Positions 4,331-49,473 of a DNA stretch of 64,000 bases are shown here, one piece after another; the first letter of the stretch is position 1; each line of letters opens with the position of its first letter. The notes under the pieces are model-generated. The model was not told where the DNA came from and searched no databases. It saw only the letters and a list, made by a program, of their open reading frames with translations. The stretch comes from Escherichia coli (GTDB lineage Bacteria; Pseudomonadota; Gammaproteobacteria; Enterobacterales; Enterobacteriaceae). The stretch lies in the NCBI RefSeq assembly GCF_009931435.1, contig NZ_CP043414.1. The stretch is one strand, 5' to 3'. The translations under genes and the position numbers were made by a program.

Positions 4331-4681
<351 letters not shown>

Positions 4682-4711
4682 GATTTCGCTTAAGCGACAT
4701 CCTGTTAAGAA

Positions 4712-4740
4712 GGGCTGGCCAATTGGCTGGCCCTTTTTTT
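4712..4740 (+). terminator. Rho-independent terminator after rplS
   Basis: GC palindrome ggccaattggcc followed by T7 run. Confidence 0.75.
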
Positions 4741-4757
4741 ATCTGTTTGCTCGTGTT

Positions 4758-5240
4758 TTAAGGGGTAGTAATCACTACTGCGACGCGGCGGTTCTCGGCG
4801 CGGCCCTGGGCGGTCTTGTTACTGGCTATGGGATATTTTTTTCCTAAACCCTGTGTGGTGAGGTTGCTGCGCGGAATTTGTCCACCTATAGCCCATGCAT
4901 CGGCCACAACATTCGCCCGTTTCAATGATAAGGCTTCGTTGTAACTGTCTTCACCATAGTTGTCGGTGTGTCCATCCATACGGGCATGCGTTAGCCCTGT
5001 CGAGGCCAATTTGGCTGCCATGGTTTGGATCTGTTGCTGGCTTTCCGGGAGCAATTTGTAGTCATTTTTTGCGAACAGAATGGCATCTGATAATCCCAGC
5101 GACCAGTCGCCGGCGGATTCAGTAAATCCATAAGATTGCATAGCGGCAACTTGCTCAGGAGTAAACTTTCCCTGAGGGGACTGGCAGCCAGTCAGTACTA
5201 GCGAGGTGAAAATCAGGGGTGCTACCAGGTGCTTTATCAT
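4758..5240 (-). CDS. yfiB: OmpA-family outer membrane lipoprotein YfiB
   Basis: 160 aa; lipobox LVLTGC; OmpA-like C-terminal domain; yfiRNB operon. Confidence 0.9.
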   Translation of the reverse strand: MIKHLVAPLIFTSLVLTGCQSPQGKFTPEQVAAMQSYGFTESAGDWSLGLSDAILFAKNDYKLLPESQQQIQTMAAKLASTGLTHARMDGHTDNYGEDSYNEALSLKRANVVADAWAIGGQIPRSNLTTQGLGKKYPIASNKTAQGRAENRRVAVVITTP

Positions 5241-5255
5241 ATCGATATATCCTTG

Positions 5256-6482
5256 TTATCTCACCAGCTTTTCGGCACGCTGGTGTTTGGCCTGATACAT
5301 ATTGTGATCGGCCAGCTCTTGTAATTTTTCCGCAGAGGCATGCTCAATGGTCATCGCGTAACCAATGCTTAATGTCATGGTGGTCTGATGACCATTATGA
5401 AGATCAAACGGGCGATTAAAGATTTGTGTCAGTGCTGAGCATATCCGCTGCACTTCAGATTCCGACTGTACACCATAGAGCACCATCGCGAATTCATCGC
5501 CGCCTATGCGGTATGCTTTATGTTGCAGCCCGCCAAATTCTGCTAACCGTTTTGCTACCTCAATCAAGACCCGATCGCCCGTCGCATGACCCCAGGTATC
5601 GTTGATATATTTAAAATTATCGCCATCAAGAAACAGTAACGCCGACGTTTTTCTGGCATCGGAACTGCTCATCAACGTGTTGATGCCGCTACGAAACGCA
5701 GCCCGGTTCGCCAGCCCGGTTAATGGGTCATGTAGCGCGGTACGTAGAAGCTGCGCATTTTTGGCCTGTAAACGAAGCTGCCACTCTTCCATTTCATCCA
5801 GCAGACTGTTGAAGTCGAGAGCGAAGCGGTGAAACTCAGCGATACGTTCTTCCGAAACTCGTCGGGAAAAATTGCGGTTGGAACGCACATCATGTACGAC
5901 ATCGGTGATATTTTTCAGCGCTTCCACCAGGCCATTGTGCAAATGGCGGGTGAGGGTAATTGCGATGCCTGATGCCAGCAGAATACAACCGGTCAGGACA
6001 GCGAGCGAAAACCAGATAAAATGGCTGATCGAGCTGTCGCGAGCGGTTAAGCGTACTTCGCCAATGGTTTCACCATTGTGACGAATCGGCTGAGTGATGG
6101 GGGCAGGGAAGAGCCAGTGGCTTATGAAATTGCTGAAAGTATCGCCTGGATCCTTACGGGTGTAATGCCAGGATGCCAGAATATTTTGCTGCTTATCACG
6201 CACTTCTGCAGTTGAAAATTGCCCTTGCTTCCCCAGCGCTGCCAGTGTTTGAGTTGCTGCAGGGCCATCGGCAAAAACGACCGCTGCTTCCAGACTGTAA
6301 GTCATTGTTGCTGCTGTCAGTGCCAGGTTTTTTTGCGCGTACTGTTTCAGGGTCAGCACCGAGGTCACGGAAAGCAGCAACCAGATCAGCATCATAGTGA
6401 TAAATATGCTGGTCATACTGATGTTGCGTAATGCTCTTTTAAACGTGGGGCGCTTATTAAGAGAATTATCGTTATCCATCAT
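5256..6482 (-). CDS. dgcN: Diguanylate cyclase DgcN/YfiN (membrane GGDEF protein)
   Basis: 408 aa; N-terminal TM/HAMP region; GGDEF domain with RIGGDEF motif. Confidence 0.93.
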
Positions 6483-6990
6483 TTTTCTTCCGTGCGAGCA
6501 TTAAGACATCTGGGTTCACCTTTACACCGCTACGCGATAAGGCATCCAGGTTTACGGCAAATCTGACGTCATTATTGTGGATGATCAGACAAAAGGCGCT
6601 GCCAATAATGCACTCGGCATTTTGTTCGGCAATTAATAATAACGCCTTTGACGGATATTGTTCGGTTAATTCCATCTGGAATGTTGGTGACTCGTTGCCA
6701 AAATAAAAACCATTGCAGCCTGATATCATCGCCTCTTGTTGAGAGTGAATGATGACAGGCAGATAAGGCAAAGATGTCGCGCCATTCTCTTGTAGGGCGG
6801 TACTAAAACGTGAAGATGAAAAGATACATAACTTTGGTAGGCCTGATAGCGCAGGCCAGCGAGTGTAACTGACAATACCGGAAACCATCGTACGCACGTT
6901 TTTCGCAACGTCTGAAGGTTCCTGAGCGAGTATTGGTGCTCCCGTCAGGAGGAGAATCAGCAGTAAGAACAGACGATGAGAAAAACGCAT
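6472..6990 (-). CDS. yfiR: Periplasmic regulator YfiR (inhibitor of YfiN)
   Basis: 172 aa with signal peptide; overlaps dgcN start; conserved operon. Confidence 0.88.
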
Positions 6991-7139
6991 TCAGGGATCC
7001 TCACCATCTTCGCTTGCAATGCATCGATAATTTTTCAGAATGCTCATTAAAATATCATTCTTTCATGCGGTCGTCATCAATGTGAGAAATAAAACACAAT
7101 GAGTAGAATCTCATGTTTAATTTATTTGTGGGGGGTTAA

Positions 7140-7505
7140 TTAATTTAATCGTATTGTGCTGGCATTTTCATCAGCCCCTTTTTGCCATACTTCATGCAGT
7201 TGGCTGGCATTTTCAACATTGTTGCAGCTGGCAGGAAAGCTTTTACCGGAAAGTCCTCGGGCATAAGTAAAATCGGTCTGGCAAGTTTTCTTTTGTCCTT
7301 CGGCATATCCTTTAAGGTATAGACCGCGATCCGCCTGTGAATCGCTAAATGCATCGTCATCTTTTATGGCGTTGCCCGATATCGCATCTTCCATACCAAC
7401 ATCATACCAGTCGGTGCTGGTCAAGGTTGGCGCGTGAGTATAAGGATCAATCTGACATCCGCTAACCAGTAAAGCCAACAAGGGGGCGATAAACTTTTTC
7501 ATCAT
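7140..7505 (-). CDS. yfiL: Lipoprotein YfiL
   Basis: Start taken at MMKKFIAPLLALLVSGC (lipobox) behind an AGGAG RBS. Confidence 0.75.
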   Translation of the reverse strand: MMKKFIAPLLALLVSGCQIDPYTHAPTLTSTDWYDVGMEDAISGNAIKDDDAFSDSQADRGLYLKGYAEGQKKTCQTDFTYARGLSGKSFPASCNNVENASQLHEVWQKGADENASTIRLN

Positions 7506-11320: not shown

Positions 11321-11347
11321 ACAAAAAACGCGCCCGAAGGTGCGTTG
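11321..11347. repeat. attL: left copy of 27-bp direct repeat (acaaaaaacgcgcccgaaggTgcgttg)
   Basis: Matches 49447..49473 with one mismatch; integrase gene lies just inside. Confidence 0.75.
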
Positions 11348-11433: not shown

Positions 11434-12456
11434 TTATGTGGATGAAATGTGGATGCCTCCTTTTAACGGATTAAGTGAAATTGCATCCTGGAGGAAATCA
11501 GGAGCGAGGTGCGCATAGGTCATAGTTTGCTGGATCGTGGCGTGCCCCATAATTCGCTGGAGCGTAAGTATATTTCCTCCATTAATCATAAAGTGAGCAG
11601 CAAAGGTATGGCGTAGAACATGTACAGCCTGTCCTTTTGGTAGGTCTGGCTTAACACTGCGAAGCACCTTGCGATATTCCTCATAATTGACGTCAAACAA
11701 AAGGCCGGATTTCTTTGTTTTGATCTCACTAACAACTTCATCAGAGACAGGAATAATTCGAACTTTTCCGTTTTTAGTTTTGTTAAACGTCACGCGATTA
11801 TTGATGATGTGTTCCGCGCGCAGATTTTTCGCTTCTCCCCATCTCGCCCCAGTACTGAGACAAAGTAGCGTAATCCGCCGGGCATCACCGCTTACTGCAT
11901 CCAGTAATTTGGCGATTTCTTCCATGGTGAGATACGTCATTTCGGGTGATTTTCGTTTCAAAGAGGGGAGGGCGCGGAGCGGATTTTCTCCGTGAAATTC
12001 CCCGGCATTTGCCAGGAGTGTAAACATTCCTCCGAGATCCGACTCATCACGCCGAACAGTAGACTCTTTTACTCCCAAAGATAAACGGGAGCTTCGATAA
12101 GCGGCCATGAAACGAGCATTAATCTGGCTAACCCTTGGATCATTCATTTCTTTGATGATTTTTTTCAACCTGGTTAGAACGCCGTTAGCATATGGCTTAT
12201 TGCGTCCACCCAATTCCCACCATAACGGAAGCAGATCTGAGAGATGACGTTGCTCTGTTGGCTTTTCAAGCCATTCCTTATCGTGCATGTGGCTGAGAAC
12301 ATAACGCTCAAAGGCCACTGCATCTGCCTTTTTCTTAAAAATCCGCTGAATCCGACGTCCACTTCGGCCACGCGGTCTAACATCCACTTTATACCGTCCA
12401 CCATCGAGCGCTTTAATTGCCATTGGCAAGCCCTCCGGTGAAACGAGGAAAGACAT
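11434..12456 (-). CDS. int: Tyrosine integrase, P2 Int-like (start possibly at 12423, MAIKALDGGRY)
   Basis: Similar to P2 Int as I recall it (LSTGARWGEA, HxLRHTFA, YAH motifs). Confidence 0.9.
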   Translation of the reverse strand: MSFLVSPEGLPMAIKALDGGRYKVDVRPRGRSGRRIQRIFKKKADAVAFERYVLSHMHDKEWLEKPTEQRHLSDLLPLWWELGGRNKPYANGVLTRLKKIIKEMNDPRVSQINARFMAAYRSSRLSLGVKESTVRRDESDLGGMFTLLANAGEFHGENPLRALPSLKRKSPEMTYLTMEEIAKLLDAVSGDARRITLLCLSTGARWGEAKNLRAEHIINNRVTFNKTKNGKVRIIPVSDEVVSEIKTKKSGLLFDVNYEEYRKVLRSVKPDLPKGQAVHVLRHTFAAHFMINGGNILTLQRIMGHATIQQTMTYAHLAPDFLQDAISLNPLKGGIHISST

Positions 12457-17615: not shown

Positions 17616-20438
17616 ATGACGGCAGAGTACATCAGGGACTGGCAACAACCGCGCCACGCAGTGGGGCGTGAAGGAACGGGGATCCCCGCTCCTGAATCCG
17701 CGCTTTCCTCCTGGCTGGATGCCTACCGGGTAGAGAACGAGCGCCGCCAGGAAATGGCTGATGCGGCGTTCTCCGCCACGCCGCTGGGCAACCTGATTAA
17801 TAAAAGCCTGGACGCACAGGAAAAACAGGACAAAACCATCACACTGGCAGGAGACGCCAGAAAACAGGCACGCGGCGCAGTGGATGAAGCCATGACCTCG
17901 CTGCGCCTGCTGCCGTCCTATCTGCGCGATCCGCTTATTCGCCACCTCTCCTTCCTGCGCAAAAAACAGGAAGCCGATCGCCGGAAAGGCAAAAAGAGCT
18001 GGCAGGCGGAACGCTATGCACGCGGAACCCTGCGCAAAATATTCGAACGTCTGGACCGCACCGATCACCGCTGGCTGACACCGGGTTATCGCTCCCTTGC
18101 CGGACGCGAACGCCTGGACGATTTGCTTTACCTGCCGCAGCTCAACAAACACCAGATACAGACGCTGGCCACCATGACGGCGGCGATGTTCAGCAGCACC
18201 TTCGAAAAACTCTGCGATGGCTTTGGCGCGACTGATGGCGAACTGACCATGGATGTAACGCTGAAGGCGTATCAGATGCTGGCCCGCATGGCGTTACACC
18301 TGCACGCCATGCCTCCACATTATGACGCACTGACAACAGACAAAGACCGGAGGAACGAACCGGACACAGAGCTGCTGCCGGGCGCAATCCTTCGCCTGAC
18401 CTGTGCGGAATGGTGGAAACGCAAACTGTGGCTGTTACGTTGCGAGTGGCGGGAAGAACAACTCCGCGCCGCCTGTCTGGTTTCCAGAAAAACATCGCCC
18501 TATCTGAGCCAGGACGCGTTAAGCGAGTTTCGCGCACAGCGCGAGAAAACACGCGATTTCCTGAAAAGTTTCATGCTGGAAAACGAAGACGGGTTCACGA
18601 TTGATCTCGAGACAGTGTATTACGCGGGAGTAAGTAACCCGGTTCACCGTAAGGCAGAAATGATGGCCACCATGAAGGGACTGGAACTTCTGGCCGAAGC
18701 CCGTGGCGACAGAGCGGTGTTTCTGACTGTCACCTGCCCGTCAAAATACCACGCAACAACGGAGAACGGTCATCCGAACCCCAAATGGAACGGGGCCACC
18801 ATGCGCGACTCCAGCGATTACCTGGTTAACACGTTTTTTGCGGCGGTCCGCAAAAAACTGAACCGCGACGGCCTGCGCTGGTATGGCATCCGCACGGTGG
18901 AGCCTCACCATGACGGCACCGTGCACTGGCATATGATGGTCTTTGCTCATCCGGAAGAAATCGACAGCATCGTGGCCATCACCCGCGATATTGCCATTCA
19001 GGAAGACCGCCACGAGCTGGGCAATGATATTACTCCGCGCTTTAAAGTGGAGTATGTCGACGGCTCAAAAGGCACACCAACCAGCTATATCGCGACCTAC
19101 ATCGGGAAAAACCTGGACAGCCGCGCCGTGGATGGCATCGACCCGAAAACGGGCAAACCACGCGTTGACCACGAAACCGGAAAGTCAATGGCCGAGAGCG
19201 TGGAACGCGCCATCGGCTGGGCGCGCCTTCACCGTGTCCGCCAGTTCCAGTTCTTTGGTATCCCCTCCCGTCAGGTGTGGCGTGAACTGCGTCGCCTTGC
19301 CAGCCAGATGGCACGCAACCCGGAAGGCCCGCAACAGCTGAAGGATGACGCAATGGATGCGGTACTCGCTGCCGCTGATGCCGGATGTTTTGCCACCTAC
19401 ATAGAGAAACAGGGCGGCGTTCTTGTTCCACGCAAAGACTACCTGATTCGCACCGCCTACGACCTCGCAGATGAGCTGAACGATTACGGCGAACAGAGCG
19501 TACAGATTTACGGGATCTGGTCGCCACTCATCGGGGAATCCTCCCGTGTGTGCACGCATCCGGATAACTGGAAGCTGGTAAGACGTAAACCGGAAACGGA
19601 AGACAGCGCCCGCGAAAATGGTTTTGACCTTCAGGGCGGCCCTGCCGCCCCTTGGACTCGTGGCAATAACTGTCCCCGTGTACAGGAAACGGACAACAAC
19701 GGGACAGAACAGCCGGAAGAACGGCCAGCACCGTGGCCGCAGCTTCCTGACAGCGTTGACGTGAATGAATGGATGCGCTCACTGAAACGGCACGAACGCC
19801 GGGCGCTGATGCGTTCGCTGCGTGACAAACAGGCAAAAAACAGCAGTGATGAAATGCAGAACTGGACACAGAGCCGCAAACAGCCACGGCCTTTGCCTGA
19901 TAACCACGAGTTACTCGCTAAAGAATGGCGGGAGTCTGCTGAATCTCTCGGCCTGCATATTGGTGAACAGCAGATGCAGCACCTGTTACGGGGCGGCAGT
20001 CTGTACGTTGACGGCAGCATCATTGCACCGCAGGGATTTGAAATTGTACGCAAACCGGATACCCGCCCGGACAGCCGAATCACGCAGCTCTGGCAGCGCC
20101 TGAGCCGTAATCACGGCGTAAGCAGCACGGGGATCCGCCATAACCCGGTCGCCAGCTATCTGGAACAGCTGGGGGCATCAGACCCCGAAGCCGCCGCACG
20201 CCTGGCATCCACACTTCAGCAGGACCAGAACACCATGAAAACCCCCGTTACCGTGCTTTCTGACATGCTGCGCGCCATCCGTGACGCAGAGCACGCACAG
20301 AGAATCAGTGAAACAACTGAACGCGCCCGCCGCAAAGCAGACCTGCTGCGGGGTGGCCTGACCAGTGGAAACAAAAAACAGACAAAAACAGGATTCACAA
20401 ATCCCGTAAATGAGCAAAAAACGCGCCGTGATATATGA
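17616..20438 (+). CDS. Rolling-circle replication initiator (HUH endonuclease, P2 gpA / phiX174 gpA family), 940 aa
   Basis: HUH motif in VHWHMMVFAHP and catalytic Tyr motif YIATYIGKNLD; position after the early operon. Confidence 0.8.
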   Translation: MTAEYIRDWQQPRHAVGREGTGIPAPESALSSWLDAYRVENERRQEMADAAFSATPLGNLINKSLDAQEKQDKTITLAGDARKQARGAVDEAMTSLRLLPSYLRDPLIRHLSFLRKKQEADRRKGKKSWQAERYARGTLRKIFERLDRTDHRWLTPGYRSLAGRERLDDLLYLPQLNKHQIQTLATMTAAMFSSTFEKLCDGFGATDGELTMDVTLKAYQMLARMALHLHAMPPHYDALTTDKDRRNEPDTELLPGAILRLTCAEWWKRKLWLLRCEWREEQLRAACLVSRKTSPYLSQDALSEFRAQREKTRDFLKSFMLENEDGFTIDLETVYYAGVSNPVHRKAEMMATMKGLELLAEARGDRAVFLTVTCPSKYHATTENGHPNPKWNGATMRDSSDYLVNTFFAAVRKKLNRDGLRWYGIRTVEPHHDGTVHWHMMVFAHPEEIDSIVAITRDIAIQEDRHELGNDITPRFKVEYVDGSKGTPTSYIATYIGKNLDSRAVDGIDPKTGKPRVDHETGKSMAESVERAIGWARLHRVRQFQFFGIPSRQVWRELRRLASQMARNPEGPQQLKDDAMDAVLAAADAGCFATYIEKQGGVLVPRKDYLIRTAYDLADELNDYGEQSVQIYGIWSPLIGESSRVCTHPDNWKLVRRKPETEDSARENGFDLQGGPAAPWTRGNNCPRVQETDNNGTEQPEERPAPWPQLPDSVDVNEWMRSLKRHERRALMRSLRDKQAKNSSDEMQNWTQSRKQPRPLPDNHELLAKEWRESAESLGLHIGEQQMQHLLRGGSLYVDGSIIAPQGFEIVRKPDTRPDSRITQLWQRLSRNHGVSSTGIRHNPVASYLEQLGASDPEAAARLASTLQQDQNTMKTPVTVLSDMLRAIRDAEHAQRISETTERARRKADLLRGGLTSGNKKQTKTGFTNPVNEQKTRRDI

Positions 20439-20486
20439 AGCGCGCACAAAACAGGCGAAAACGGGATTTAAAAATCCTGTAACCGA
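20385..20486. repeat. Two copies of a ~24-bp imperfect palindrome spanning the replication-gene stop and parM upstream region
   Basis: aaaacaGGATTcacaaATCCCgtaa (20385..20410) and aaaacgGGATTtaaaaATCCTgtaa (20457..20486); possible ParR operator or parC. Confidence 0.5.
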
Positions 20487-20514
20487 TTAATTAATCAACA
20501 TAAGGAAAAGCGAC

Positions 20515-21474
20515 ATGAAAATTTGTATCGACGACGGATCCACCAACATCAAGCTGGCATGGACTGAGAACGGCGAACGCCGCAACGCCATCAGCCCGAA
20601 CAGCTTCAAGTCAGAATGGTCTGCGCCGTTCGGTGGCACGCAGCCCGCGAACTACATGCTTGATGGCGTGCGCTATGGTTTTGATCCGGTCAGCGATCGC
20701 TTTGTCCAGACGACCGACACGCAATACCAGTACAGCGATGTGAATGTCATTGCCATTCATCATGCGCTGGTCAAATCAGGCATCACGCCACAGGAGGTGG
20801 ATGTGGTTGTCACCCTGCCACTGAGCGAGTATTTCGACACAAACGCACAGCCGGACATGGCCAACATCAACCGCAAAAAAGCGAACGTTATGCGCCCGGT
20901 GGAGTACCAGAACGGCGAGGCATTCACTATCCGTAACGTGCGGGTTATGCCTGAATCCATTCCGGCTGGCTTTAAAGCACTGGCTGACATGAGTCCGTTT
21001 GAATCCCTGCTGATTGTGGATTTGGGCGGAACCACGCTGGATGTGGCAAAGGTTCAGGGGCAACTGGCAGGTATCAGCCAGGTGTTTTGCGATCCACACG
21101 TAGGCGTTTCCCTGATGGCCGATGCCGTACTGTCGGTAATGGCCACTAACGGTATGCGCACCAGTCACCACATCGCCAATACCATTATCGAACATCGCCA
21201 CGATGAAGCCTGGCTGCGCCAGCACATCCACAATAACGCACATTACGCCAGCCTGATGGCTGTTATTCGTGAAAAGGAAGAAACACTGAAACAACGCGTG
21301 ATCCGCGCGCTGGCGGGTTTTTCGGGTTACGGGCGGGTGATGGTTGTAGGTGGAGGGGCAGAGATTGTGGCACCCGCTATCCGCGAAGCCTGCGGAGTTA
21401 ATGCGACTTTCATCGCGGACGGGGTGCCACAGTTTGCTCTGGTTAATGGGCTGTACGCAATGGACAAGGAGTAA
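20515..21474 (+). CDS. parM: Actin-like segregation ATPase ParM/StbA
   Basis: N-terminal IDDGSTNIKLAW and overall similarity to plasmid R1 ParM as recalled. Confidence 0.85.
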   Translation: MKICIDDGSTNIKLAWTENGERRNAISPNSFKSEWSAPFGGTQPANYMLDGVRYGFDPVSDRFVQTTDTQYQYSDVNVIAIHHALVKSGITPQEVDVVVTLPLSEYFDTNAQPDMANINRKKANVMRPVEYQNGEAFTIRNVRVMPESIPAGFKALADMSPFESLLIVDLGGTTLDVAKVQGQLAGISQVFCDPHVGVSLMADAVLSVMATNGMRTSHHIANTIIEHRHDEAWLRQHIHNNAHYASLMAVIREKEETLKQRVIRALAGFSGYGRVMVVGGGAEIVAPAIREACGVNATFIADGVPQFALVNGLYAMDKE

Positions 21475-21478
21475 ATCA

Positions 21479-21793
21479 ATGACGACACCAACCAGACGGA
21501 TAAGTTTCTATCTGAAGCCCGCCGTCGTCAAGAGCGAACGGGAGGCGTGCAGTTACCTCGACAGCCTGCCAGCCTCCGAACGCAGCCGCGCACAACGCGC
21601 GGCTTTTCTGGCCGGACTGGCTCTTATAAAACGCACCCCCGCGTTGGCGTATTCGCTGGCAGAATGGTCAGAAGACGAAATACGGATGCCACCGCTACCA
21701 GTACAGCCTGAAAAACCGGCGCAACCAGCAGCAGACAGCGCCCCCCATATGCAGCAGGTGAAAAAGAATATTCAGGCGTTTTTCCCGAAGTGA
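21479..21793 (+). CDS. parR: ParR/StbB-like centromere-binding protein (104 aa)
   Basis: Immediately downstream of parM; AGGAG RBS; N-terminal RRISFYLKP resembles R1 ParR. Confidence 0.65.
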   Translation: MTTPTRRISFYLKPAVVKSEREACSYLDSLPASERSRAQRAAFLAGLALIKRTPALAYSLAEWSEDEIRMPPLPVQPEKPAQPAADSAPHMQQVKKNIQAFFPK

Positions 21794-21807: not shown

Positions 21808-22095
21808 ATGTCCACCATTACCAAAGAATGGTTACAACGTAAAATCACAGAGTTTAAATCGTGGCGCGAAGACATCCCGTTCGGTCTTGATGAAGACGAT
21901 CACAATATGTTAATCGCACTGGAAATCGCACTTGCATCACTGGAAGCAGAGCCAGTGGCATGGATGCACGCAAATAATCCTATTGGAATACCGGCGATAA
22001 CAAGAAGTAAAGATGTTGCAGACAGCTGGCGCTCTAAGGGATGGAATGTATTGCCTCTTTATTCACTGACCCGCTCCATCAATTTATGCCATTAA
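21808..22095 (+). CDS. Hypothetical protein (95 aa)
   Basis: ORF starting MSTITKEWLQRK. Confidence 0.4.
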   Translation: MSTITKEWLQRKITEFKSWREDIPFGLDEDDHNMLIALEIALASLEAEPVAWMHANNPIGIPAITRSKDVADSWRSKGWNVLPLYSLTRSINLCH

Positions 22096-22106
22096 TGGAA
22101 GTAATC

Positions 22107-22466
22107 ATGATGAAAGATAATTCCGGAAGCCAGCGTGCATCAGTTGCAGTTATGGTAATGATTAAATTTGTGAAACAGTACACCGGAAAGCCAATCTCGC
22201 TCCGGCAATTAAGCAAAGAAACCGTTTCACTGTCATATCTGGAGCAAATATTCAGATATTTACGGGAAAGTAGCCTGGTAAAAGCCACACGCGGCCCGGG
22301 TGGTGGATATATCCCGACAAAAGAAAATTACAGTGTTGGTGATATTGTCCGGGCAATGAAATGTTCCGGATTATATACACAGCACGTTATTCTGGCTGCA
22401 CTGGATAATATTTCTTTAACCAGCCTGCAGGAAGACACAAATTATCAGTTGTCTGCCATTGAATAA
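22107..22466 (+). CDS. Rrf2-family-like transcriptional regulator (short, 119 aa)
   Basis: LSYLEQIFRYLRESSLVKATRGPGGGY matches the Rrf2/IscR HTH signature. Confidence 0.55.
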   Translation: MMKDNSGSQRASVAVMVMIKFVKQYTGKPISLRQLSKETVSLSYLEQIFRYLRESSLVKATRGPGGGYIPTKENYSVGDIVRAMKCSGLYTQHVILAALDNISLTSLQEDTNYQLSAIE

Positions 22467-22534: not shown

Positions 22535-22792
22535 CTATCCGGCCTGCAACAACTCCAGAGCCATTTGTTTTTCTTCCGGACGCATCCGCTCAATCAACAG
22601 CTTTAACACACCATTCTCCAGCCCGCTGGGCACCAGTGTGTGCGAGTAGGTCAGATTCATCACCCAGGTATGTCCGCACTCGAGACGGGTGCAACGGTAA
22701 TACACATCAGCAAACTGATCGGTTTTCCAGGCTGTTTTCTCAATCACTGCATGTGCACCGCAGCAATGACATCGCGCTTTCTGTCTGCGCAT
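22535..22792 (-). CDS. Ogr/Delta-family zinc-finger late-gene activator (start at internal Met)
   Basis: CxCC...YYRC...CGH pattern similar to P2 Ogr; adjacent to the late operon. Confidence 0.65.
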   Translation of the reverse strand: MRRQKARCHCCGAHAVIEKTAWKTDQFADVYYRCTRLECGHTWVMNLTYSHTLVPSGLENGVLKLLIERMRPEEKQMALELLQAG

Positions 22793-22857
22793 TTTCCACC
22801 TCCCGGAACAGCGTTTTACTGCCACCGATTTTACCCGCTCTTTCCCCATACCGCACA

Positions 22858-23892
22858 TCACTCCATGGGTTCATCAAAATCAAGAATAAATTTCACCTCC
22901 CCCAGTCGTCTGATATCCGGGTCGCTGTTGATCCCCTCCATAATCAGGCGGCGCATCGGGATAACCTCATCCCTGTAATATGCCTCGCGGGATTTCAGTG
23001 GGTCACCAAGCCCGGCCGTATTTGCGGGAATGATGCCGGCAAGCCCGGGTGGAAAACGGTGCGCAACGAGCTGATCCTGGGCACTGATAGTTTTTATATT
23101 CAGGAACTCATCTTTTGTACCTGAATCTCCGATAGGGATCACCTTAACGCCTTCTTTGTCTCCGCCAGGTATATTGATAAACATGGATTTAAAATTGCCC
23201 GCCCCTTTTGACGCCTCTATCTTTTTACGGAATTCCGCCTCGAGCTCGGGATCCATGTCCGGGTCAGTGGAATACAGGATATAACCAAGATGTGCGCCGT
23301 TCTTGTAATACTTGCGGCGAAAGCGGGTGGCATCCACATTCAGCATGGCAGATTCCATCCCGTGAATATAATCCGGGACACCGTAAACCTGCTGTTGCGG
23401 GTCATAAATGGCCACGAACACTACTTCGCCTGGCGGGTAAACGAGATCTTCCAGTGCCGCCTGCACAATCACCGTGCCACCCTCGTTGTTACGCCGCAGG
23501 TACAGAGAAGGTAACGTATGCAGGCGCACCACTCGACCGAAGCCATTGCGCACTTTAAGCAACCCCATATCCCCGAATATCAGCAGATTGGTTACTGCTG
23601 CCGCCATGGCGGCGTGTGTCATACCACCACCCCCCCGAAAACCCTGCATGATCATATTGACGCGCGCACGCAATACCGCGCCGTGATACGGTGCGATATT
23701 GGACAACATGGCGAGATCCATGCGCTCAATGGGCGGCGTGTACCAGCCGTTATAGCCATCCCAGAGCGAGCCGTAATAACAGCCCCATGCAGCGACCGGT
23801 TCCGGGTCACCAAATTCAATAAAAGTCATTTTGCTGGCTGTTTTTTTTGCCACGCCATCGTGTAACACGGGGTATTTTTTCTTTTTACTCAT
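22858..23892 (-). CDS. Portal protein (P2 gpQ-like, 344 aa)
   Basis: Size and position next to terminase large subunit, divergent from scaffold/capsid. Confidence 0.75.
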   Translation of the reverse strand: MSKKKKYPVLHDGVAKKTASKMTFIEFGDPEPVAAWGCYYGSLWDGYNGWYTPPIERMDLAMLSNIAPYHGAVLRARVNMIMQGFRGGGGMTHAAMAAAVTNLLIFGDMGLLKVRNGFGRVVRLHTLPSLYLRRNNEGGTVIVQAALEDLVYPPGEVVFVAIYDPQQQVYGVPDYIHGMESAMLNVDATRFRRKYYKNGAHLGYILYSTDPDMDPELEAEFRKKIEASKGAGNFKSMFINIPGGDKEGVKVIPIGDSGTKDEFLNIKTISAQDQLVAHRFPPGLAGIIPANTAGLGDPLKSREAYYRDEVIPMRRLIMEGINSDPDIRRLGEVKFILDFDEPME

Positions 23893-25672
23893 CTGACAGG
23901 ATCCATGTTGATTTGCGCTTGTGCTTATAGTTCAGGGGTTCATTACTTGCGGCATGAGCTATGGCAAAGAAGATGTCAGCGTGCCCGGTTTCTTCGCTAC
24001 GTTCGGCGGTGAAAGTGACTTTATTGCCGCTGTTGGTGGATTCCTGACGAATGGCCAGGAACGATGCCGGAATATCCGTGGCTTCTTCATCCCACTCAAT
24101 ACGGTTGGCGTAAATCAGATCCAGCATCTTCATCACCAGGCGGTTTTTGGATTCCACGCTGTAATGAATGGCCACTGTTTCACGGCGGGCAAATCCCTGA
24201 ACCAGCTCAAAGACACCGTAGCCAAGACCGGTGACGTCAATGCCGATAAATGTCATGTTATAGCGCGCCTTAATGCTGCGGATACGCTCTGCCATAAACT
24301 GGAATGACATGCTGCGCCAGTGGTGTTTTTCCAGCACGCGGAATCGTTCTGCCGCAACCAGCGGCGGTGCCAGCACAACAAATGTGGCGTTATCGCCGGA
24401 GCGCGCAGGGTCAAAGCCGCCCCACACTTCACGGTTACCAAATGGCATGGGCTCTTCCGGGTGAAAATCCTCCCACGTACTGACATCAACACCACAACGC
24501 ACAAGATCATCGAATTTAAAGACGCTCTCTTTGTCATCCACAAACACACACATAAACAGCATATTGAACGCTGTTTCGTTGTATCGCTCGCGCAGCTCGT
24601 TGATGTCAGCAAGGTTAAAGCCGCCGGCAATGGCATCTTCCAGCGTAACCACATAGCGCCACTGACCATCCGGACATTCACGCCCACCATCGCGCAGCTC
24701 ATCAAAGGACGGAAACTCAACCCCTTTTCGTTTCGGATCGCCTTTGCGCCATTCATCGCCAGACCAGAACGGGTAACCCTGGTGTGTTTTGGATGACGGC
24801 GTGGAGAAATAGGTAATGCGCCAGTGTTTATGGGTGGCCATCCCTGATGCCACTTCATTGAGACGGCGAAAACCGGGGATCCACAGGTATTCATCAATAT
24901 ACAGGTGGCCGCTGTTTGACTGCGCTGTGTTACTGTTGGTCGCCAGAAAATACAGTTCAGCCAGATTACTTAACTTAACCGGATTGCCTTTAATGGGAAT
25001 GCCAAACTCTGTTTGTGCAATTTTTACAATATAAGTACGGAACACTTCGGCCTGACGTTTTGATGCCGATAAAAATATCTGTGTGTCGCCGGTTAATACT
25101 GCATCTTCAAATGCCTCAAACGCGAAGTAATACGTCGCCCCAATCTGGCGGGATTTAAGCAGGTTGCGTACACGGCGGAATTTGTTTTCACGCAGATGCA
25201 ACTGATAAGCAAACAACTTTTTCGTAAACGGCTCAAAACTTTCAGCAGTCAGTCCGGAAACGTCATTAGCTTTGCGGGGGCGCTCTTTCTTACCTGCACC
25301 TTTTTCTCCGCGTTCTTCTTTTCCATAACGACCAGACTGGGGAATATCCGCTCCCATTCGTTCAATCTCGGCCATTCGTTCCGTGTGCTTGTTCCTGACC
25401 GACATCAGTTTGACATGATGACCAATCAGGCGATCGAGTTCATCGTGCTCTTCCGGCGTTTTATGATCACGCTCCGCCAGTACAGCGAGACGACGGGCGA
25501 TAACATCCTCCACGCCTTCAGTATTAAGCTGTGTGTACCACTCAAACTTTGTCGCCCAGTAATAAACAATTCGCGGGCTGTTCAGTCCGAGCTTCTTTTG
25601 TATTTCTTTTGGTGTGTGTCTTTTCAGATAGAGCGATTTTGCAGCAGCAATCACCTCATCAGAATACGCCAT
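23885..25672 (-). CDS. Terminase large (ATPase) subunit, P2 gpP-like
   Basis: 595 aa; ATPase motif region; gene order. Confidence 0.85.
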   Translation of the reverse strand: MAYSDEVIAAAKSLYLKRHTPKEIQKKLGLNSPRIVYYWATKFEWYTQLNTEGVEDVIARRLAVLAERDHKTPEEHDELDRLIGHHVKLMSVRNKHTERMAEIERMGADIPQSGRYGKEERGEKGAGKKERPRKANDVSGLTAESFEPFTKKLFAYQLHLRENKFRRVRNLLKSRQIGATYYFAFEAFEDAVLTGDTQIFLSASKRQAEVFRTYIVKIAQTEFGIPIKGNPVKLSNLAELYFLATNSNTAQSNSGHLYIDEYLWIPGFRRLNEVASGMATHKHWRITYFSTPSSKTHQGYPFWSGDEWRKGDPKRKGVEFPSFDELRDGGRECPDGQWRYVVTLEDAIAGGFNLADINELRERYNETAFNMLFMCVFVDDKESVFKFDDLVRCGVDVSTWEDFHPEEPMPFGNREVWGGFDPARSGDNATFVVLAPPLVAAERFRVLEKHHWRSMSFQFMAERIRSIKARYNMTFIGIDVTGLGYGVFELVQGFARRETVAIHYSVESKNRLVMKMLDLIYANRIEWDEEATDIPASFLAIRQESTNSGNKVTFTAERSEETGHADIFFAIAHAASNEPLNYKHKRKSTWILSDE

Positions 25673-28611: not shown

Positions 28612-29106
28612 ATGTTTGACGGGAAAAGCATTCACTATCAGCAGGCCATTATTCAGAACGATGGATTCTGGCCGGATATTGATGCCGGCGATTTTGAAAA
28701 GAGCCGCAGCATCTCCGCCGTCACGTCACACGAAACGGTGCTGACGGCGCTGCTTTGCGCGGTAACAGAGATTAACACTGAACTGGCTGCACGCCGTGAA
28801 TACTGGCAGGAACAGGGCCACATCCGGGCCGCTGATATTCCGGGTTACACCGTGTTGCAACCAGAGCCGCGCAATACGGATGCACAACCTGAACGGATGC
28901 AGAACCACATTACAGCACTGTACACCAAGGCTGTATATGCCCGCGCAAAGGCCGATCTTTTGCCGGAATCTGCCAGCGTGGGGCGGCGCGAGGCGCAGCC
29001 ATCATCAGAAGCCAGCGAAAGCCGCCGGACGTTGCTGGCTGAAGCGGCCATGGCGGTGCGGGCGCTGCTGGGCCGACCGCGTGCATCCATCGCGCTGATT
29101 GATTAA
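28612..29106 (+). CDS. Head completion/stabilisation protein, P2 gpL-like (start at internal Met MFDGK)
   Basis: GGAGTGAG RBS; 164 aa; gene order. Confidence 0.7.
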   Translation: MFDGKSIHYQQAIIQNDGFWPDIDAGDFEKSRSISAVTSHETVLTALLCAVTEINTELAARREYWQEQGHIRAADIPGYTVLQPEPRNTDAQPERMQNHITALYTKAVYARAKADLLPESASVGRREAQPSSEASESRRTLLAEAAMAVRALLGRPRASIALID

Positions 29107-29115
29107 GGAAATGGT

Positions 29116-29589
29116 ATGACGCAACTCGCCAGCCTGACGGCATTCATTGAAAACAATCTGCCGGCACGCGCACGCATTCCGTTCACCAGTGACATGGATG
29201 ACATCACGCTCGTTCCGTTTACGAAGTCGCTGGGGCACGGGCAGTTATGTACGCAGGTCCGAAAATATACGGCTTTTCTGCGATGGGACGCATGGCCCTA
29301 TCGTCAGCTCAATCCGGATTTGGTGTTTTCTCTGGTTGAAGCCTGGCTGGCAGACAACGGCGGCGACCTGCGCCAGCGCCTGGCACCGGATGCGCCAGCC
29401 GTTGACGTCGAAGTGGATGATGAAAATGAAGTGGCATGGCTGGAAATCAGTCTGCCGCTGGTTGATCCCATCACCCTGGTTGAGGACGAAAACGGCCCCA
29501 TCCCCAGAGGCGGGAAACGTTACCAGCTGGAAAAGCCTGAAATCTGGGTGGCTCAGGCGCATCAGCTTCACTGCCAGGTGATGCCATGA
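29116..29589 (+). CDS. Putative head-tail joining / tail completion protein (157 aa)
   Basis: Position between head completion and sheath genes. Confidence 0.45.
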   Translation: MTQLASLTAFIENNLPARARIPFTSDMDDITLVPFTKSLGHGQLCTQVRKYTAFLRWDAWPYRQLNPDLVFSLVEAWLADNGGDLRQRLAPDAPAVDVEVDDENEVAWLEISLPLVDPITLVEDENGPIPRGGKRYQLEKPEIWVAQAHQLHCQVMP

Positions 29590-30299
29590 CGCGCCCCGTG
29601 ATTAACGAGTCACAACTCCGGCAGGTTCGTCGCGCCATCAGAGAGGCAGAACTTCCGCCGGCAAAGGCCAGAAAGCTGCTGGTTCGCATTGCGAAATACG
29701 GCCTGATACCGGCTGCACGACGCAATGTGAAAGCACAGCGAACACCGGAGGGGGCAGCCTGGGCACCACGAAAAAGACCGGATAAAGCCGGCGGCAGGTA
29801 TAAAAACAAAATGCTGCTGGGACTGCCGAAACTGCTGGCCATCAGGGTTGACGGCAGCGGGAAAAGTGTCCGCCTTTTCTTCAAAAAAGGGGATTACAAC
29901 ACCGGCTCTCATGGTGGGGCGGTCGCGTGGGTGCAACAGCACGGCGCAACCATCAAAGGCCGCGCCACAAAACGCCGGGACAGCGAAGCCATGCGCACCC
30001 GTCCCGCCACACGACGGCAGGCAGAACGCCTTCTTTCTCTGGGCTTTCGCGCCCCCGTCGGCGCAGTCAACAAAAAAAACGGACGCAGGGGACGCAGAAA
30101 GCCTTCTCTGAAATGGATTATGGAAAACATGAGTATGGCGCAGGCCGGACTGGTGATCAGCATTCTGAAAGGCGAGCAGAAAAAACGTGTATGGGAAATC
30201 AAAATCCCCTCCCGCGCATTTCTGGGAGCCAGCGATGCTGAATTTGCCCGCATTCTGGAAGCGCAGCTGCGCAGCCTGCATTACGGCGGCACGAGATAA
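29586..30299 (+). CDS. Putative virion morphogenesis / tail completion protein (237 aa)
   Basis: Translationally coupled; position before sheath. Confidence 0.45.
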   Translation: MTRPVINESQLRQVRRAIREAELPPAKARKLLVRIAKYGLIPAARRNVKAQRTPEGAAWAPRKRPDKAGGRYKNKMLLGLPKLLAIRVDGSGKSVRLFFKKGDYNTGSHGGAVAWVQQHGATIKGRATKRRDSEAMRTRPATRRQAERLLSLGFRAPVGAVNKKNGRRGRRKPSLKWIMENMSMAQAGLVISILKGEQKKRVWEIKIPSRAFLGASDAEFARILEAQLRSLHYGGTR

Positions 30300-30318
30300 C
30301 AAAATCAGGAGACAAACC

Positions 30319-31467
30319 ATGACATGGCCATCTGTCACGATTGAACAGTACAACACATTCAGCAGTTCACCGGACGGCGTGGAAAATACGCTGCTGTTTG
30401 TGGGCAATGCACAAAACAACAAAGGTGAGGTTCTGCCGGTTAATGCCAACAGCGATCTGGATGAGCTACTGGGAAAGAACGCCAGCCCGCTGAAGAACTT
30501 CCTTCAGTCTGCACTGACCAATGCCGGACAGAATGCCTTTTTCTATGTTGCCGTTCTGCCGGAAGCCGGCAAAGGCAAAGAAGCAACGCCAGCCTGCCAG
30601 GTATGGCAGAACGCCATACTGGCGGCTCAGGAAACTGTTTCAGTTGAAGGCGTGGTGATCACCGAGCCGGTCAGCACGAAGGATGACATCAACGCCATAC
30701 AGGCGTTACGTCAGACCATCATCAATAAATATCAGCGCCGCATCTGGTTCATCCTGACCATCGCCGCCAACGACAACAGTAAAACCTGGGCGGAATACGT
30801 TGCCGAACTGACCGCACTACAGAAAGGCATTGCAGCCCCGCAGGTCATGCTGGTTCCGGAGATTTTTGGATTTGAACCGGGCGTTCTTGCCGGTCGCCTG
30901 TGTAACAGCGCCGTCACCATTGCTGACAGTCCGGCACGTGTGGCAACCGGGCACCTGTCCGCACTGAAAACCACAGAACGCCCGAAAGACAGCACAGGGC
31001 AGGCAATTGATCTCGACACTCTGCAGGCACTGGCAACCGCCCGCTACAGCGTGCCCATGTGGTATGCCGACTATGACGGCCTTTACTGGGCTGACGGTGT
31101 AACACTTGAGGTGGAAGGCGGGGACTACAACGTCATTGAGCATGTCCGCATTGCTGATAAGGTGGCGCGCCGCGTGCGGCTGATGGCCATCCCCAAGATT
31201 GCCGACCGCTCGCTGAACAGCACGCCGGGCAGCATTGCCGCACATGAAACGCTGTTTGCCCGCCCACTGCGTGCCATGGCGAAATCCATGCAAATTAACG
31301 GCATCACGTTTCCGGGCGAAGTGAAATCGCCCCGGAAAGGCGACGTGGTTATCACCTGGCAGGACGAAAAGACGGTCAGCATCAGCATTGTCGTCCGCCC
31401 TTACGCCTGCCCTAAAACCATCAAAGTGGGCATTCAGCTGGATAAATCTCTGGAGGAAAACGCATGA
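30319..31467 (+). CDS. Tail sheath protein (382 aa, start at MTWPSVTIEQ)
   Basis: AGGAGA RBS; size; immediately upstream of tube gene. Confidence 0.65.
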   Translation: MTWPSVTIEQYNTFSSSPDGVENTLLFVGNAQNNKGEVLPVNANSDLDELLGKNASPLKNFLQSALTNAGQNAFFYVAVLPEAGKGKEATPACQVWQNAILAAQETVSVEGVVITEPVSTKDDINAIQALRQTIINKYQRRIWFILTIAANDNSKTWAEYVAELTALQKGIAAPQVMLVPEIFGFEPGVLAGRLCNSAVTIADSPARVATGHLSALKTTERPKDSTGQAIDLDTLQALATARYSVPMWYADYDGLYWADGVTLEVEGGDYNVIEHVRIADKVARRVRLMAIPKIADRSLNSTPGSIAAHETLFARPLRAMAKSMQINGITFPGEVKSPRKGDVVITWQDEKTVSISIVVRPYACPKTIKVGIQLDKSLEENA

Positions 31468-41758: not shown

Positions 41759-42330
41759 TGAAAATAATCGACATAAAGGCGATGAAATACCTGGAAGACG
41801 GGTCTGTTTCCTGTGAAGTGTTGTTTGGAGGGCGGGCTGATTATATTCCTTATCGTGCAGTGGAAAATGATTCTGCTGCATCAGGCCAGCGGGTATGGGG
41901 AACACTGATGAGCGGTGAGTTTGGTGAAATCATCCCCTTCACTGTAACAGCAGAGATGCTGGACAAAGAAAAAGAACTGAAAAAAGAGGAAATCAGGCGC
42001 TGGCGAACAGAACAGGAGGCGCAGCCGTTCACATTCGAATGGAACAGCAGCACATGGAATGGAGGAAAATCCTCACTGGAACGCTTATTCCCGGCAGTGA
42101 TGGCAGCAAAATCTGGTGTGGCACACAATGCCACAGTATGGAGTGATGCAAATAACCAACAAATTAAATTGTCACAACAAAAGCTGGAAGAACTACTTAC
42201 GGCAATGGTGCAGGCTCAGGCTGCACGCAACGATGAGATTTACCTGCGCCAGCGTGAGATGAAAAACACGCTGGCCACACTGAATAACATTGCTGCAATT
42301 AGGGCATTTCAGGTGGGCAAAGCAGAATGA
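41758..42330 (+). CDS. Tail fibre assembly chaperone 2 (190 aa, start at MKIIDIKAMKY)
   Basis: Downstream of fibre 2; internal Met coupled to fibre stop. Confidence 0.65.
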   Translation: MKIIDIKAMKYLEDGSVSCEVLFGGRADYIPYRAVENDSAASGQRVWGTLMSGEFGEIIPFTVTAEMLDKEKELKKEEIRRWRTEQEAQPFTFEWNSSTWNGGKSSLERLFPAVMAAKSGVAHNATVWSDANNQQIKLSQQKLEELLTAMVQAQAARNDEIYLRQREMKNTLATLNNIAAIRAFQVGKAE

Positions 42331-46887: not shown

Positions 46888-46907
46888 ATTGCCTGATTTT
46901 CTCTCAG

Positions 46908-47234: not shown

Positions 47235-47251
47235 ACGTCTGTTTGGTTATA

Positions 47252-49446: not shown

Positions 49447-49473
49447 ACAAAAAACGCGCCCGAAGGCGCGTTG
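49447..49473. repeat. attR: right copy of the 27-bp direct repeat; also the raiA terminator hairpin
   Basis: acaaaaaacgcgcccgaaggcgcgttg; perfect hairpin acgcgcc/ggcgcgt plus T-run on the raiA strand. Confidence 0.75.

What the first reader, a model, noticed from the sequence alone, without database searches (positions are those of the whole stretch)
20385..21793. Plasmid-type ParM/ParR partition locus inside an integrated prophage, with paired palindromic repeats upstream
ParM (actin-like ATPase, DDGSTNIKL N-terminus) and a small ParR-like protein lie directly after the replication-initiator gene, preceded by two copies of a ~24-bp imperfect palindrome (GGATT-N5-AATCC core) 72 bp apart. Type II partition systems are hallmark plasmid genes and are unusual in P2-type integrating phages. 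Together with an integrase and att sites this suggests the element may also persist as an episome, or uses ParMR for another purpose.
Basis: partly seen in the sequence, partly recalled or inferred. Interest (0 to 1): 0.55.

Follow-up and report, generated by a model that had tools for sequence, protein, structure and literature searches.

The report
ParMR partition cassette in P2-like prophage
An integrated P2-like E. coli prophage carries an intact plasmid-style actin (ParM/ParR) DNA-segregation cassette with a small two-site centromere; it is real and under selection, but very common, already annotated and already noted in the literature, and its role in the phage is untested.

Summary
parM (20515-21474) and parR (21479-21793) follow the P2-type replication gene gpA. 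They are preceded by two copies of a 38-nt repeat, 73 bp apart (not 72). Each copy holds a 20-bp imperfect palindrome, consensus ACGGGATT-N4-AATCCCGT (N4, not N5).

ParM is about 50% identical to plasmid R1 ParM and keeps all nucleotide-binding motifs. ParR is a Plasmid_stab_B/pB171-ParR-type adaptor.

The element is a 38-kb prophage integrated between pheL and raiA, with 20-bp att cores. The cassette is not a recent plasmid capture. It occurs in about 24% of complete E. coli genomes, almost always on the chromosome, and in about 94% of genomes carrying this gpA type. parM has dN/dS of 0.05.

P2-like prophages of Plesiomonas, Hafnia, Serratia and Enterobacter have the same gene order. Their ParMs form a clade apart from plasmid ParMs.

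Rousset et al. 2022 already reported that about a quarter of E. coli P2-like phages carry a putative partition system, with the same episome speculation.

Most likely the cassette is an early-operon ParMRC module acting on free circular phage DNA after infection or excision. That role is inferred, not shown. Stable plasmid lysogeny is poorly supported.

The parts
11321..11340 (.). attL core (20-bp direct repeat ACAAAAAACGCGCCCGAAGG), on the pheL side
   Evidence: Exact 20-bp match with 49447-49466. Flanking genes pheA/pheL by comparison with NZ_CP074819.1.
11434..12456 (-). Tyrosine integrase of the prophage
   Evidence: ORF. Annotated as tyrosine-type recombinase/integrase in the matching record.
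17616..20438 (+). gpA, the P2-type replication endonuclease (940 aa). Its last codons contain repeat/site 1.
   Evidence: PHROG 91 'nicking at origin of replication', E=1.4e-276. Annotated as replication endonuclease.
20372..20409 (+). Repeat 1 with the palindrome at 20388-20407. Proposed ParR-binding site 1 of a minimal parC, inside the 3' end of gpA.
   Evidence: The same paired architecture, 72-73 bp apart, occurs in Plesiomonas (L086) and Hafnia (L087).
20445..20482 (+). Repeat 2 with the palindrome at 20461-20480. Proposed ParR-binding site 2 (intergenic), a possible operator.
20490..20498 (+). ATTAATCAA box between site 2 and the parM ribosome-binding site (AAGGA, 20502-20506). It is conserved in E. 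coli, Plesiomonas and Hafnia. Its role is unknown; it might be a weak -10 element.
   Evidence: Read from the sequences. The sigma-70 consensus scan did not call a promoter here.
20515..21474 (+). parM, an actin-fold filament-forming ATPase
   Evidence: Pfam StbA_N and ParM C-terminal domain. E=1.9e-92 to R1 ParM, PDB 1mwk, over the full length. dN/dS 0.05 across 71 unique copies.
21479..21793 (+). parR, a ribbon-helix-helix adaptor (104 aa) with a conserved C-terminal NIxAxFP tail. From about 21524 onward it is a deeply divergent allele relative to phage P88.
   Evidence: Pfam Plasmid_stab_B 2.7e-24. A ParR profile hits pB171 ParR, PDB 2jd3, at E=4.3e-14. Allele analysis.
21808..22466 (+). 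Variable hotspot cargo after parR: a 95-aa ORF of unknown function plus an Rrf2-family regulator
   Evidence: Only 36 of 1303 genomes that match the locus also cover this part.
22535..23892 (-). ogr/Delta-type late activator and the portal gpQ, which close the gpA-gpQ interval
49447..49466 (.). attR core, on the raiA side

Best explanation
This is a complete type II (ParMRC-type) DNA-segregation cassette that belongs to one lineage of P2-like temperate phages (P88/Xuanwuvirus and relatives).

ParR dimers are proposed to bind the two GGGAyy-N4-rrTCCC palindromes, which lie 73 bp (seven helical turns) apart across the gpA stop codon. The conserved ParR C-terminal tail is proposed to capture ParM filaments. 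ParM polymerisation would then push or position DNA molecules carrying the sites.

The cassette follows gpA with no intervening terminator and no clear promoter of its own. I therefore infer that it is expressed with the early/replication operon. It would act on the free circular phage genome just after infection or after excision, not on the quiescent integrated prophage. It could spread replicating monomeric circles through the cell, as the AlpAC system does for prophage CGP3. Or it could deliver copies to both daughter cells before integration.

Shown: homology, intact motifs, purifying selection, lineage-wide conservation of the gene order and of the paired sites, and chromosomal integration. 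Inferred: ParR binding to the sites, timing of expression, and the biological role.
For: ParM. Full-length Pfam matches. About 50% identity to R1 ParM, with DDGSTNIK, PESIPAG, DLGGTTLD and GGGAE conserved.

ParR. Plasmid_stab_B. A ParR profile hits the pB171 ParR structure at 4.3e-14. The beta-strand RRISFYLKP is invariant in nearly all of the ParR variants seen in 85 loci, and the C-terminal N..A/x.F motif is shared with plasmid ParRs.

Sites. They are unique in the window. Pairs 72-73 bp apart recur immediately upstream of parM in Plesiomonas and Hafnia. In Hafnia and Enterobacter the repeats stay with parM even though other genes separate it from gpA.

Selection. parM dN/dS is 0.05. Both parR allele classes are intact, with dN/dS of about 0.3 in the DNA-binding domain.

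Lineage. The order gpA-parM-parR-cargo-ogr-portal occurs in five divergent enterobacterial lineages. The P2-like ParMs cluster apart from R1, ICE and plasmid ParMs in 100 of 100 bootstraps. parM is present in 1278 genomes against 1354 with this gpA type.

Expression. There is no + strand terminator between gpA and parM, and no consensus promoter in the 76-bp spacer.

Precedent. The integrated prophage CGP3 uses an actin-like protein plus adaptor on excised circular DNA for efficient replication (PMC4446434).
Against: There are no experimental data for this cassette in any P2-like phage in the searched literature.

Only two sites are present, against about ten iterons in classical parC (compare L091 and L092). 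Whether two ParR dimers can nucleate a segrosome is unknown.

Among close relatives the sites are no more conserved than neighbouring synonymous positions. There is no ParR/site covariation.

A weak promoter overlapping site 2 cannot be excluded, so the cassette could also be expressed in lysogens.

Partition is not obviously useful in a lytic cycle, where the cell does not divide.
Confidence: 0.55

Rival explanations
1. Dual lifestyle. The cassette lets the phage persist stably as a low-copy plasmid prophage when it does not integrate. This is the reading of the first reader and of Rousset et al.
For: The cassette is homologous to genuine plasmid stability systems. One PLSDB record, NZ_CP148288.1, is a 34,461-bp circular copy of the complete phage genome with int next to the closed junction. 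A 99.9% identical phage is chromosomal in another strain, so the same phage is recorded in both states. The speculation is published (PMC9122126).
Against: 1441 of 1443 places in 5426 complete E. coli genomes are chromosomal. The other 'plasmid' hits are large replicons. The one examined (pS2122_1) carries chromosomal flanks: pheA, ffh, rpsP. The rest were not examined. Every context examined that includes the left end keeps an integrase. From general knowledge of P2 biology, not tested here: replication by gpA is rolling-circle and sits in the operon repressed in lysogens, so no plasmid-type maintenance replicon is evident. A single circular assembly can be an excised replicative form from spontaneous induction.
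Confidence: 0.15
2. Hotspot cargo that serves the host or the prophage against competitors, for example partition-based incompatibility or exclusion of related phages or plasmids, rather than segregation of the phage's own DNA.
For: It lies in the gpA-gpQ interval, the known anti-phage hotspot of P2-like phages (PMC9122126). Defence-like cargo follows it in relatives: a KAP NTPase and HicAB. parR itself is mosaic, with deep alleles (dS about 1.0 against 0.08 for parM), as expected at a recombination hotspot or under diversifying pressure.
Against: No PADLOC model matches either protein. The cassette is near-fixed next to gpA across a whole lineage and in distant genera, while the genes after it vary. 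That is the pattern of a backbone module, not of cargo. The ParR recognition strand and the sites are the same across alleles, so no specificity switching is visible.
Confidence: 0.1
3. The paired palindromes are not a centromere. They would instead be an RNA or DNA structure, such as an attenuator between gpA and parM or a gpA-related element, and ParR would act elsewhere.
For: The 161-nt region folds well as RNA (z = -3.4), pairing the arms of the two sites. In the window, the outer arms carry matching A/T variants. Site 1 lies inside gpA.
Against: Among 30 unique site pairs, neither local hairpins nor cross-pairing is preserved better than the other, and mismatches occur in all modes. In Plesiomonas the arms shrink to GGG/CCC with a 10-nt gap, which is poor for a hairpin but fine for repeated protein sites. 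The sites follow parM, not gpA, in Hafnia and Enterobacter. There is no T-run after the stems.
Confidence: 0.08
4. A decaying relic of a past plasmid-phage recombination, with no present function.
For: Some copies are damaged: L084 has an internal stop in parM and a short parR; L012 has a short parR. Truncated ParM clusters exist.
Against: dN/dS is 0.05 over 71 unique parM sequences. 84 of 85 sampled copies are intact. The cassette is retained across genera whose gpA has diverged to 30-55% identity.
Confidence: 0.03

Closest known systems
ParMRC (type II partition) of plasmid R1/NR1 (parM/stbA, parR/stbB, parC)
   Same: Same gene order (cis site, parM, parR). ParM is about 50% identical over its full length, with all nucleotide-binding motifs. 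ParR belongs to the same Pfam family, Plasmid_stab_B. parM and parR are translationally coupled. Repeated sites lie directly upstream of parM.
   Different: It sits in an integrating P2-like phage, inside the early operon after gpA. It has only two palindromic sites 73 bp apart, instead of two blocks of about 11-bp iterons flanking a strong promoter (compare the iteron-rich L091 and L092). No consensus promoter is present. The E. coli phage ParR is shorter (104 aa) and lacks the middle helical segment present in plasmid ParRs. Its ParM falls in a separate clade.
pB171 par2 ParR (PDB 2jd3)
   Same: A profile of the phage ParRs matches it at E=4.3e-14 over the ribbon-helix-helix N-domain.
   Different: Only the N-terminal roughly 60 residues align for the window protein alone (E=0.009). 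Linker and length differ.
AlpAC/alpS of the Corynebacterium glutamicum prophage CGP3
   Same: An integrated prophage encodes an actin-like filament former plus a DNA-binding adaptor whose sites lie upstream of the operon. The system acts on excised circular phage DNA early after induction and is needed for efficient replication (PMC4446434). This is the best functional analogy.
   Different: Different host phylum, phage type and actin-like subfamily. A direct comparison of this ParM with AlpC was not made here. The function is demonstrated for CGP3 and not for P2-like phages.
Partition modules of phage-plasmids (for example P1-like phage D6, StbA type)
   Same: Phage D6 encodes a ParM homologue, 48% identical. 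It is a phage genome using a plasmid segrosome.
   Different: From general knowledge, D6 and P1 lysogenise as plasmids. The present element has an integrase and att sites and is almost always chromosomal.
gpA-gpQ hotspot systems of P2-like phages (old, tin, retrons and others; Rousset et al. 2022)
   Same: Same genomic interval. The paper lists the 'putative plasmid partitioning system' among the loci found there, in about a quarter of phages.
   Different: Unlike the swapping defence cargo, parMR is fixed next to gpA in its lineage, and the variable genes begin within or after parR. There is no defence-model match.

Membership tests
Type II (ParMRC) partition system | Actin-fold ATPase ParM with intact phosphate-1, phosphate-2, adenosine and catalytic motifs | tested here: met
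   Pfam StbA_N 2.5e-82 and ParM C-terminal domain 2.5e-68. E=1.9e-92 to R1 ParM. DDGSTNIK, PESIPAG, DLGGTTLD and GGGAE are conserved.
Type II (ParMRC) partition system | Small ribbon-helix-helix adaptor ParR encoded immediately downstream of parM | tested here: met
   Plasmid_stab_B 2.7e-24. A ParR profile hits pB171 ParR 2jd3 at 4.3e-14. The start codon lies 4 nt after the parM stop.
Type II (ParMRC) partition system | ParR C-terminal peptide that binds ParM | tested here: inconclusive
   The C-terminal motif (K/R)xN(I/A)xx(F/L/M)F is conserved across phage and plasmid ParRs despite a hypervariable linker. Binding itself cannot be tested.
Type II (ParMRC) partition system | Cis-acting centromere parC: repeated ParR sites upstream of parM, overlapping its promoter | tested here: inconclusive
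   Two unique repeated palindromes are in the right place, and their position and spacing are conserved across lineages. But there are only two sites, no consensus promoter and no covariation with ParR alleles.
Type II (ParMRC) partition system | Stabilises an otherwise unstable replicon | not testable with these tools
   Needs a plasmid-loss assay.
Phage-plasmid (extrachromosomal prophage) | The prophage is maintained as an autonomous replicon rather than integrated | tested here: not met
   Integrated here, with 20-bp att cores. 1441 of 1443 E. coli places are chromosomal. One phage-sized circular record exists.
Phage-plasmid (extrachromosomal prophage) | Plasmid-type replication module active in lysogeny, and usually no integrase | tested here: not met
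   Only the P2-type gpA rolling-circle initiator is present, and an integrase is present.
Anti-phage defence system of the P2 gpA-gpQ hotspot | Match to a known or candidate defence protein model | tested here: not met
   No PADLOC hit at E<=0.1 for ParM, ParR or the two downstream ORFs.
Anti-phage defence system of the P2 gpA-gpQ hotspot | Variable presence among otherwise similar phages (cargo behaviour) | tested here: not met
   parM is in 1278 genomes against 1354 with this gpA type. All 14 phage isolates with gpA of at least 80% identity carry it.
AlpAC-type prophage actin system (CGP3) | Induced early after excision and required for efficient phage DNA replication | not testable with these tools
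   Only the operon position (after gpA, no terminator) suggests early expression.

The most novel reading that the evidence does not exclude
A plasmid segrosome has been retained for a long evolutionary time as a backbone module of an integrating phage lineage. It would work with a minimal two-site centromere straddling the gpA stop codon, on transient free circles: replicating monomers, or pre-integration or excised genomes. That would be a non-plasmid use of ParMRC that raises replication efficiency or lysogenisation and inheritance. The deep parR allele classes, set against an almost invariant parM and invariant sites, could reflect selection on the adaptor, for example to avoid cross-talk between co-resident prophages.
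Probability: 0.45. Interest if true: 0.55.

Novelty: already known. Interest (0 to 1): 0.3.

Why it matters
The cassette sits in roughly one in four complete E. coli genomes. If it acts on free phage circles, a classic plasmid machine would be part of the infection or lysogeny programme of a very common prophage family. That would be a tractable Gram-negative counterpart to the CGP3 AlpAC system. If it instead supports heritable episomes, P2-like phages would have a hidden plasmid state, which matters for prophage detection, curing and gene transfer. As it stands, the presence of the cassette is annotated and published. Only the function is open.

Tried and rejected
1. ParR allele against site covariation. 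Two deep ParR N-domain classes exist. Both occur with the same palindrome variants across 85 loci, so a specificity switch is rejected.

2. Extra constraint on the sites. Third-codon positions of gpA inside palindrome 1 are no less variable than elsewhere. The relatives compared are too close for this test to have power.

3. RNA-structure reading. The region folds well (z = -3.4). But counts over 30 unique site pairs favour no pairing mode.

4. Defence function. PADLOC found nothing.

5. Own sigma-70 promoter. The consensus scan found none in the gpA-parM spacer. Manual inspection gives only weak candidates around the conserved ATTAATCAA box.

6. Does the strain carrying the circular 34.5-kb copy also have a chromosomal copy? 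Its chromosome is not in the E. coli collection. Only a 99.9% identical integrated copy in another strain was found.

7. The genome-contig scan returned only 25 loci because the peptide patterns were narrow. It was still useful for separating contexts with a gpA neighbour from those without.

8. I first thought the window carried an IS66 insertion in the early operon. That insertion is in NZ_CP074819.1, not in the window (coordinate comparison).


Full report
**What is in the window**

The region 17.6-23.9 kb reads as follows:
- gpA, 17616-20438 (+), 940 aa
- parM, 20515-21474 (+)
- parR, 21479-21793 (+)
- a 95-aa ORF and an Rrf2-type regulator, 21808-22466 (+)
- ogr, 22535-22861 (-)
- portal, 22858-23892 (-)
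- terminase, 23885-25672 (-)

The window is E. coli chromosome. The 2.2-kb locus is 100% identical to NZ_CP074819.1. That record carries an IS66 insertion upstream which the window lacks.

The prophage is bounded by a 20-bp direct repeat, ACAAAAAACGCGCCCGAAGG, at 11321-11340 (next to pheL and int) and at 49447-49466 (next to raiA). It is therefore about 38 kb long and integrated.

**Check of the observation**

ParM matches Pfam StbA_N (2.5e-82) and the ParM C-terminal domain (2.5e-68). It also matches PHROG 691, 'partition protein'. It aligns end to end with R1 ParM (PDB 1mwk, E=1.9e-92, about 50% identity), with the nucleotide-binding and catalytic motifs conserved.

ParR matches Plasmid_stab_B (2.7e-24). 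As a profile with relatives, it matches the pB171 ParR structure 2jd3 at 4.3e-14.

The repeats are real. A 38-nt direct repeat lies at 20372-20409 and 20445-20482. Each copy holds a 20-bp imperfect palindrome.

With up to 1 mismatch, the family consensus ACGGGATT-N4-AATCCCGT occurs only at these two places in 64 kb, and never in 100 shuffles.

**How common it is, and where**

The locus is found in 1303 of 5426 complete E. coli genomes. That is 1443 places, of which 1441 are chromosomal.

parM covers at least 80% of its length in 1278 genomes. The neighbouring gpA type does so in 1354 genomes. The cassette is therefore near-fixed in this phage lineage.

Among 50,697 phage records, an R1-type ParM appears in only two groups:
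- 14 P88/Xuanwuvirus-type records (95.6-99.7% identical)
- the phage-plasmid D6 (48% identical)

A gpA homologue is present in 382 records.

Plasmid ParMs are at most 52% identical. The few plasmid records with the phage-type gene fall into two kinds:
- Large replicons. The one examined carries the prophage embedded in chromosomal flanks such as pheA, ffh and rpsP.
- One 34,461-bp circular record that is simply the whole phage genome. A 99.9% identical copy is chromosomal in another strain.

**An old association, not a recent capture**

ParM homologues of 54-63% identity were traced to their contigs. In Plesiomonas, Hafnia, Serratia and Enterobacter they lie in the same order: gpA, sometimes 1-2 genes, parM, parR, variable cargo, ogr, portal.

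Homologues of 53% identity or less lie in plasmid or ICE contexts with no gpA nearby.

In a neighbour-joining analysis, the P2-like ParMs group to the exclusion of the R1, Mangrovibacter and Dickeya proteins in 100 of 100 bootstraps. The exact 16-member clade appears in 46 of 100.

gpA has diverged to 30-55% identity, and the portal to 34-75%, among these phages. The module has therefore travelled with the phage backbone for a long time.

Across 71 unique prophage copies, parM has pS = 0.077, pN = 0.004 and dN/dS = 0.05. Of 85 sampled copies, 84 are intact.

**The cis sites**

In E. coli both sites have the consensus ACGGGATT-N4-AATCCCGT. Variation is mainly in the 4-nt spacer and at one arm position.

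Related lineages show comparable arrangements:
- Plesiomonas has two GCGGGACAAC..AACCC repeats 72 bp apart, again one in the 3' end of gpA and one intergenic.
- Hafnia has GGGATTGAGGAAACCC and GGGTTCATTAAATCCC 73 bp apart. There they lie in the end of an extra ORF that separates gpA from parM.
- Serratia and Enterobacter instead have one long inverted repeat directly upstream of parM.

So the repeats follow parM rather than gpA.

Plasmid and ICE relatives show the classical many-iteron parC of TTATCTC repeats (L091, L092). The phage version is thus a reduced, two-site centromere.

An ATTAATCAA box between site 2 and the ribosome-binding site is shared by E. coli, Plesiomonas and Hafnia. Its role is unknown.

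The consensus scan finds no promoter in the 76-bp spacer and no + strand terminator after gpA. This fits read-through from the early operon but does not prove it.

**ParR is mosaic**

ParM is 98-100% identical among the E. coli phages. ParR is very different: the window ParR is only 52-54% identical to the P88-type ParR.

The first 15 codons are identical. Codons 16-64 then have dS of about 1.0 and dN of about 0.33, against dS of 0.08 for parM. A deep allele has evidently been exchanged, with a breakpoint near 21524.

Across 85 loci there are two N-domain classes, a hypervariable linker and a conserved C-terminal NIxAxFP tail. The recognition strand RRISFYLKP is invariant in nearly all of the ParR variants seen.

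Both ParR classes occur with the same site variants. I found no evidence of a specificity switch.

The E. coli ParRs also lack a middle helical segment that is present in the other lineages and in plasmid ParRs.

**Mechanism**

The best-supported reading is a working ParMRC module. ParR binds the two sites, its tail binds ParM, and ParM filaments move the DNA. The biological setting is inferred.

The module sits at the end of the replication operon of a phage that is almost always found integrated. Its natural substrate is therefore the free circular genome after infection or excision.

From general knowledge, P2-type replication produces monomeric circles, which is the kind of substrate a plasmid segrosome handles.

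The closest demonstrated analogue is AlpAC of the integrated prophage CGP3. It is induced early, binds sites upstream of its operon, and is needed for efficient replication of the excised circle (PMC4446434).

A second possibility of the same kind is delivery of copies to both daughter cells before integration.

The rival reading of a stable plasmid lifestyle has one supporting circular record. It is opposed by the chromosomal location of nearly all copies and by the retained integrase.

A defence or exclusion role has no model support, and the cassette does not behave as cargo.

An RNA-structure reading of the palindromes gains no support from pair counts.

**Novelty**

The genes are named ParM and 'plasmid partitioning/stability family protein' in RefSeq and in phage records.

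I found no experimental work on it.

- the separate ParM clade and its spread across genera
- near-fixation within the lineage and strong purifying selection
- the minimal two-site centromere and its conserved spacing
- the mosaic parR

**Verdict**

The feature is already known, with its function open. Interest is 0.3.

Noticed in passing
window 21524-21793 (parR from codon 16 on): parR is a deeply divergent allele relative to P88 (dS about 1.0 against 0.08 in parM), while the first 45 nt are identical. Across 85 loci there are two N-domain classes and many linker variants, next to an almost invariant parM. The reason is unknown; it may be a recombination-hotspot edge or selection on the adaptor.
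   Followed up: partly
window 21808-22466: The hotspot cargo after parR is a 95-aa ORF (PHROG 660, unknown function) plus an Rrf2/IscR-like regulator. Only 36 of the 1303 genomes with the locus share it. No defence-model hit.
   Followed up: partly
window 20490-20498: An ATTAATCAA box between site 2 and the parM ribosome-binding site is conserved in E. coli, Plesiomonas (L086 about 5973) and Hafnia (L087 about 5931), although ParM is only about 62% identical. It may be a weak -10 element or another protein site.
   Followed up: no
L082 (IMG/VR UViG_2657245439_000011), upstream of parM: A 73-bp deletion between the two repeats leaves one hybrid site and gives gpA a new tail (TGFKNPVTD*). Read in the gpA frame, repeat 2 encodes nearly the same peptide as repeat 1, which suggests the pair arose by duplication of the gpA 3' end.
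   Followed up: partly
L004 = NZ_CP148288.1 (1-34461): A 'plasmid' record that is the complete circular P88-like phage genome, with int next to the closed junction. It also carries a Hok/Gef gene and a Com/methyltransferase pair. A 99.9% identical phage is integrated in strain Z1323HEC0067.
   Followed up: partly
L003 = NZ_CP110658.1 99744-140700: A Salmonella IncHI2 'plasmid' contains a chromosomal segment (ffh, rpsP, trmD, aroF, tyrA, pheA) together with a sopE-carrying prophage of this same type, next to IS26. This is either a chimeric replicon or a misassembly.
   Followed up: no
L002 = NZ_CP074819.1, locus 4470-7353: The copy that is 100% identical over parMR has an IS66-family (ISEc23) insertion splitting the DUF4761 gene of the early operon. 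The window lacks this insertion.
   Followed up: partly
window about 29100-45300: The tail module differs from the P2-type tail genes of P88. It has a DUF2586 protein, a tape measure at 33216-35312, DUF2590, baseplate J and several large tail proteins. The early region and head genes are P88/P2-like, so the prophage is mosaic.
   Followed up: partly
window 46507-48799: A YafO-family toxin ORF (46507-46887) and a 489-aa ATP-dependent nuclease (47330-48799) lie near attR. They are probably prophage-end cargo or defence genes.
   Followed up: no
L084 and L012 (IMG/VR): Occasional damaged copies. L084 has an internal stop in parM at codon 182 and a 57-aa parR. L012 has a 79-aa parR. Large clusters of truncated ParM (188-261 aa) also exist in the protein database.
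   Followed up: no
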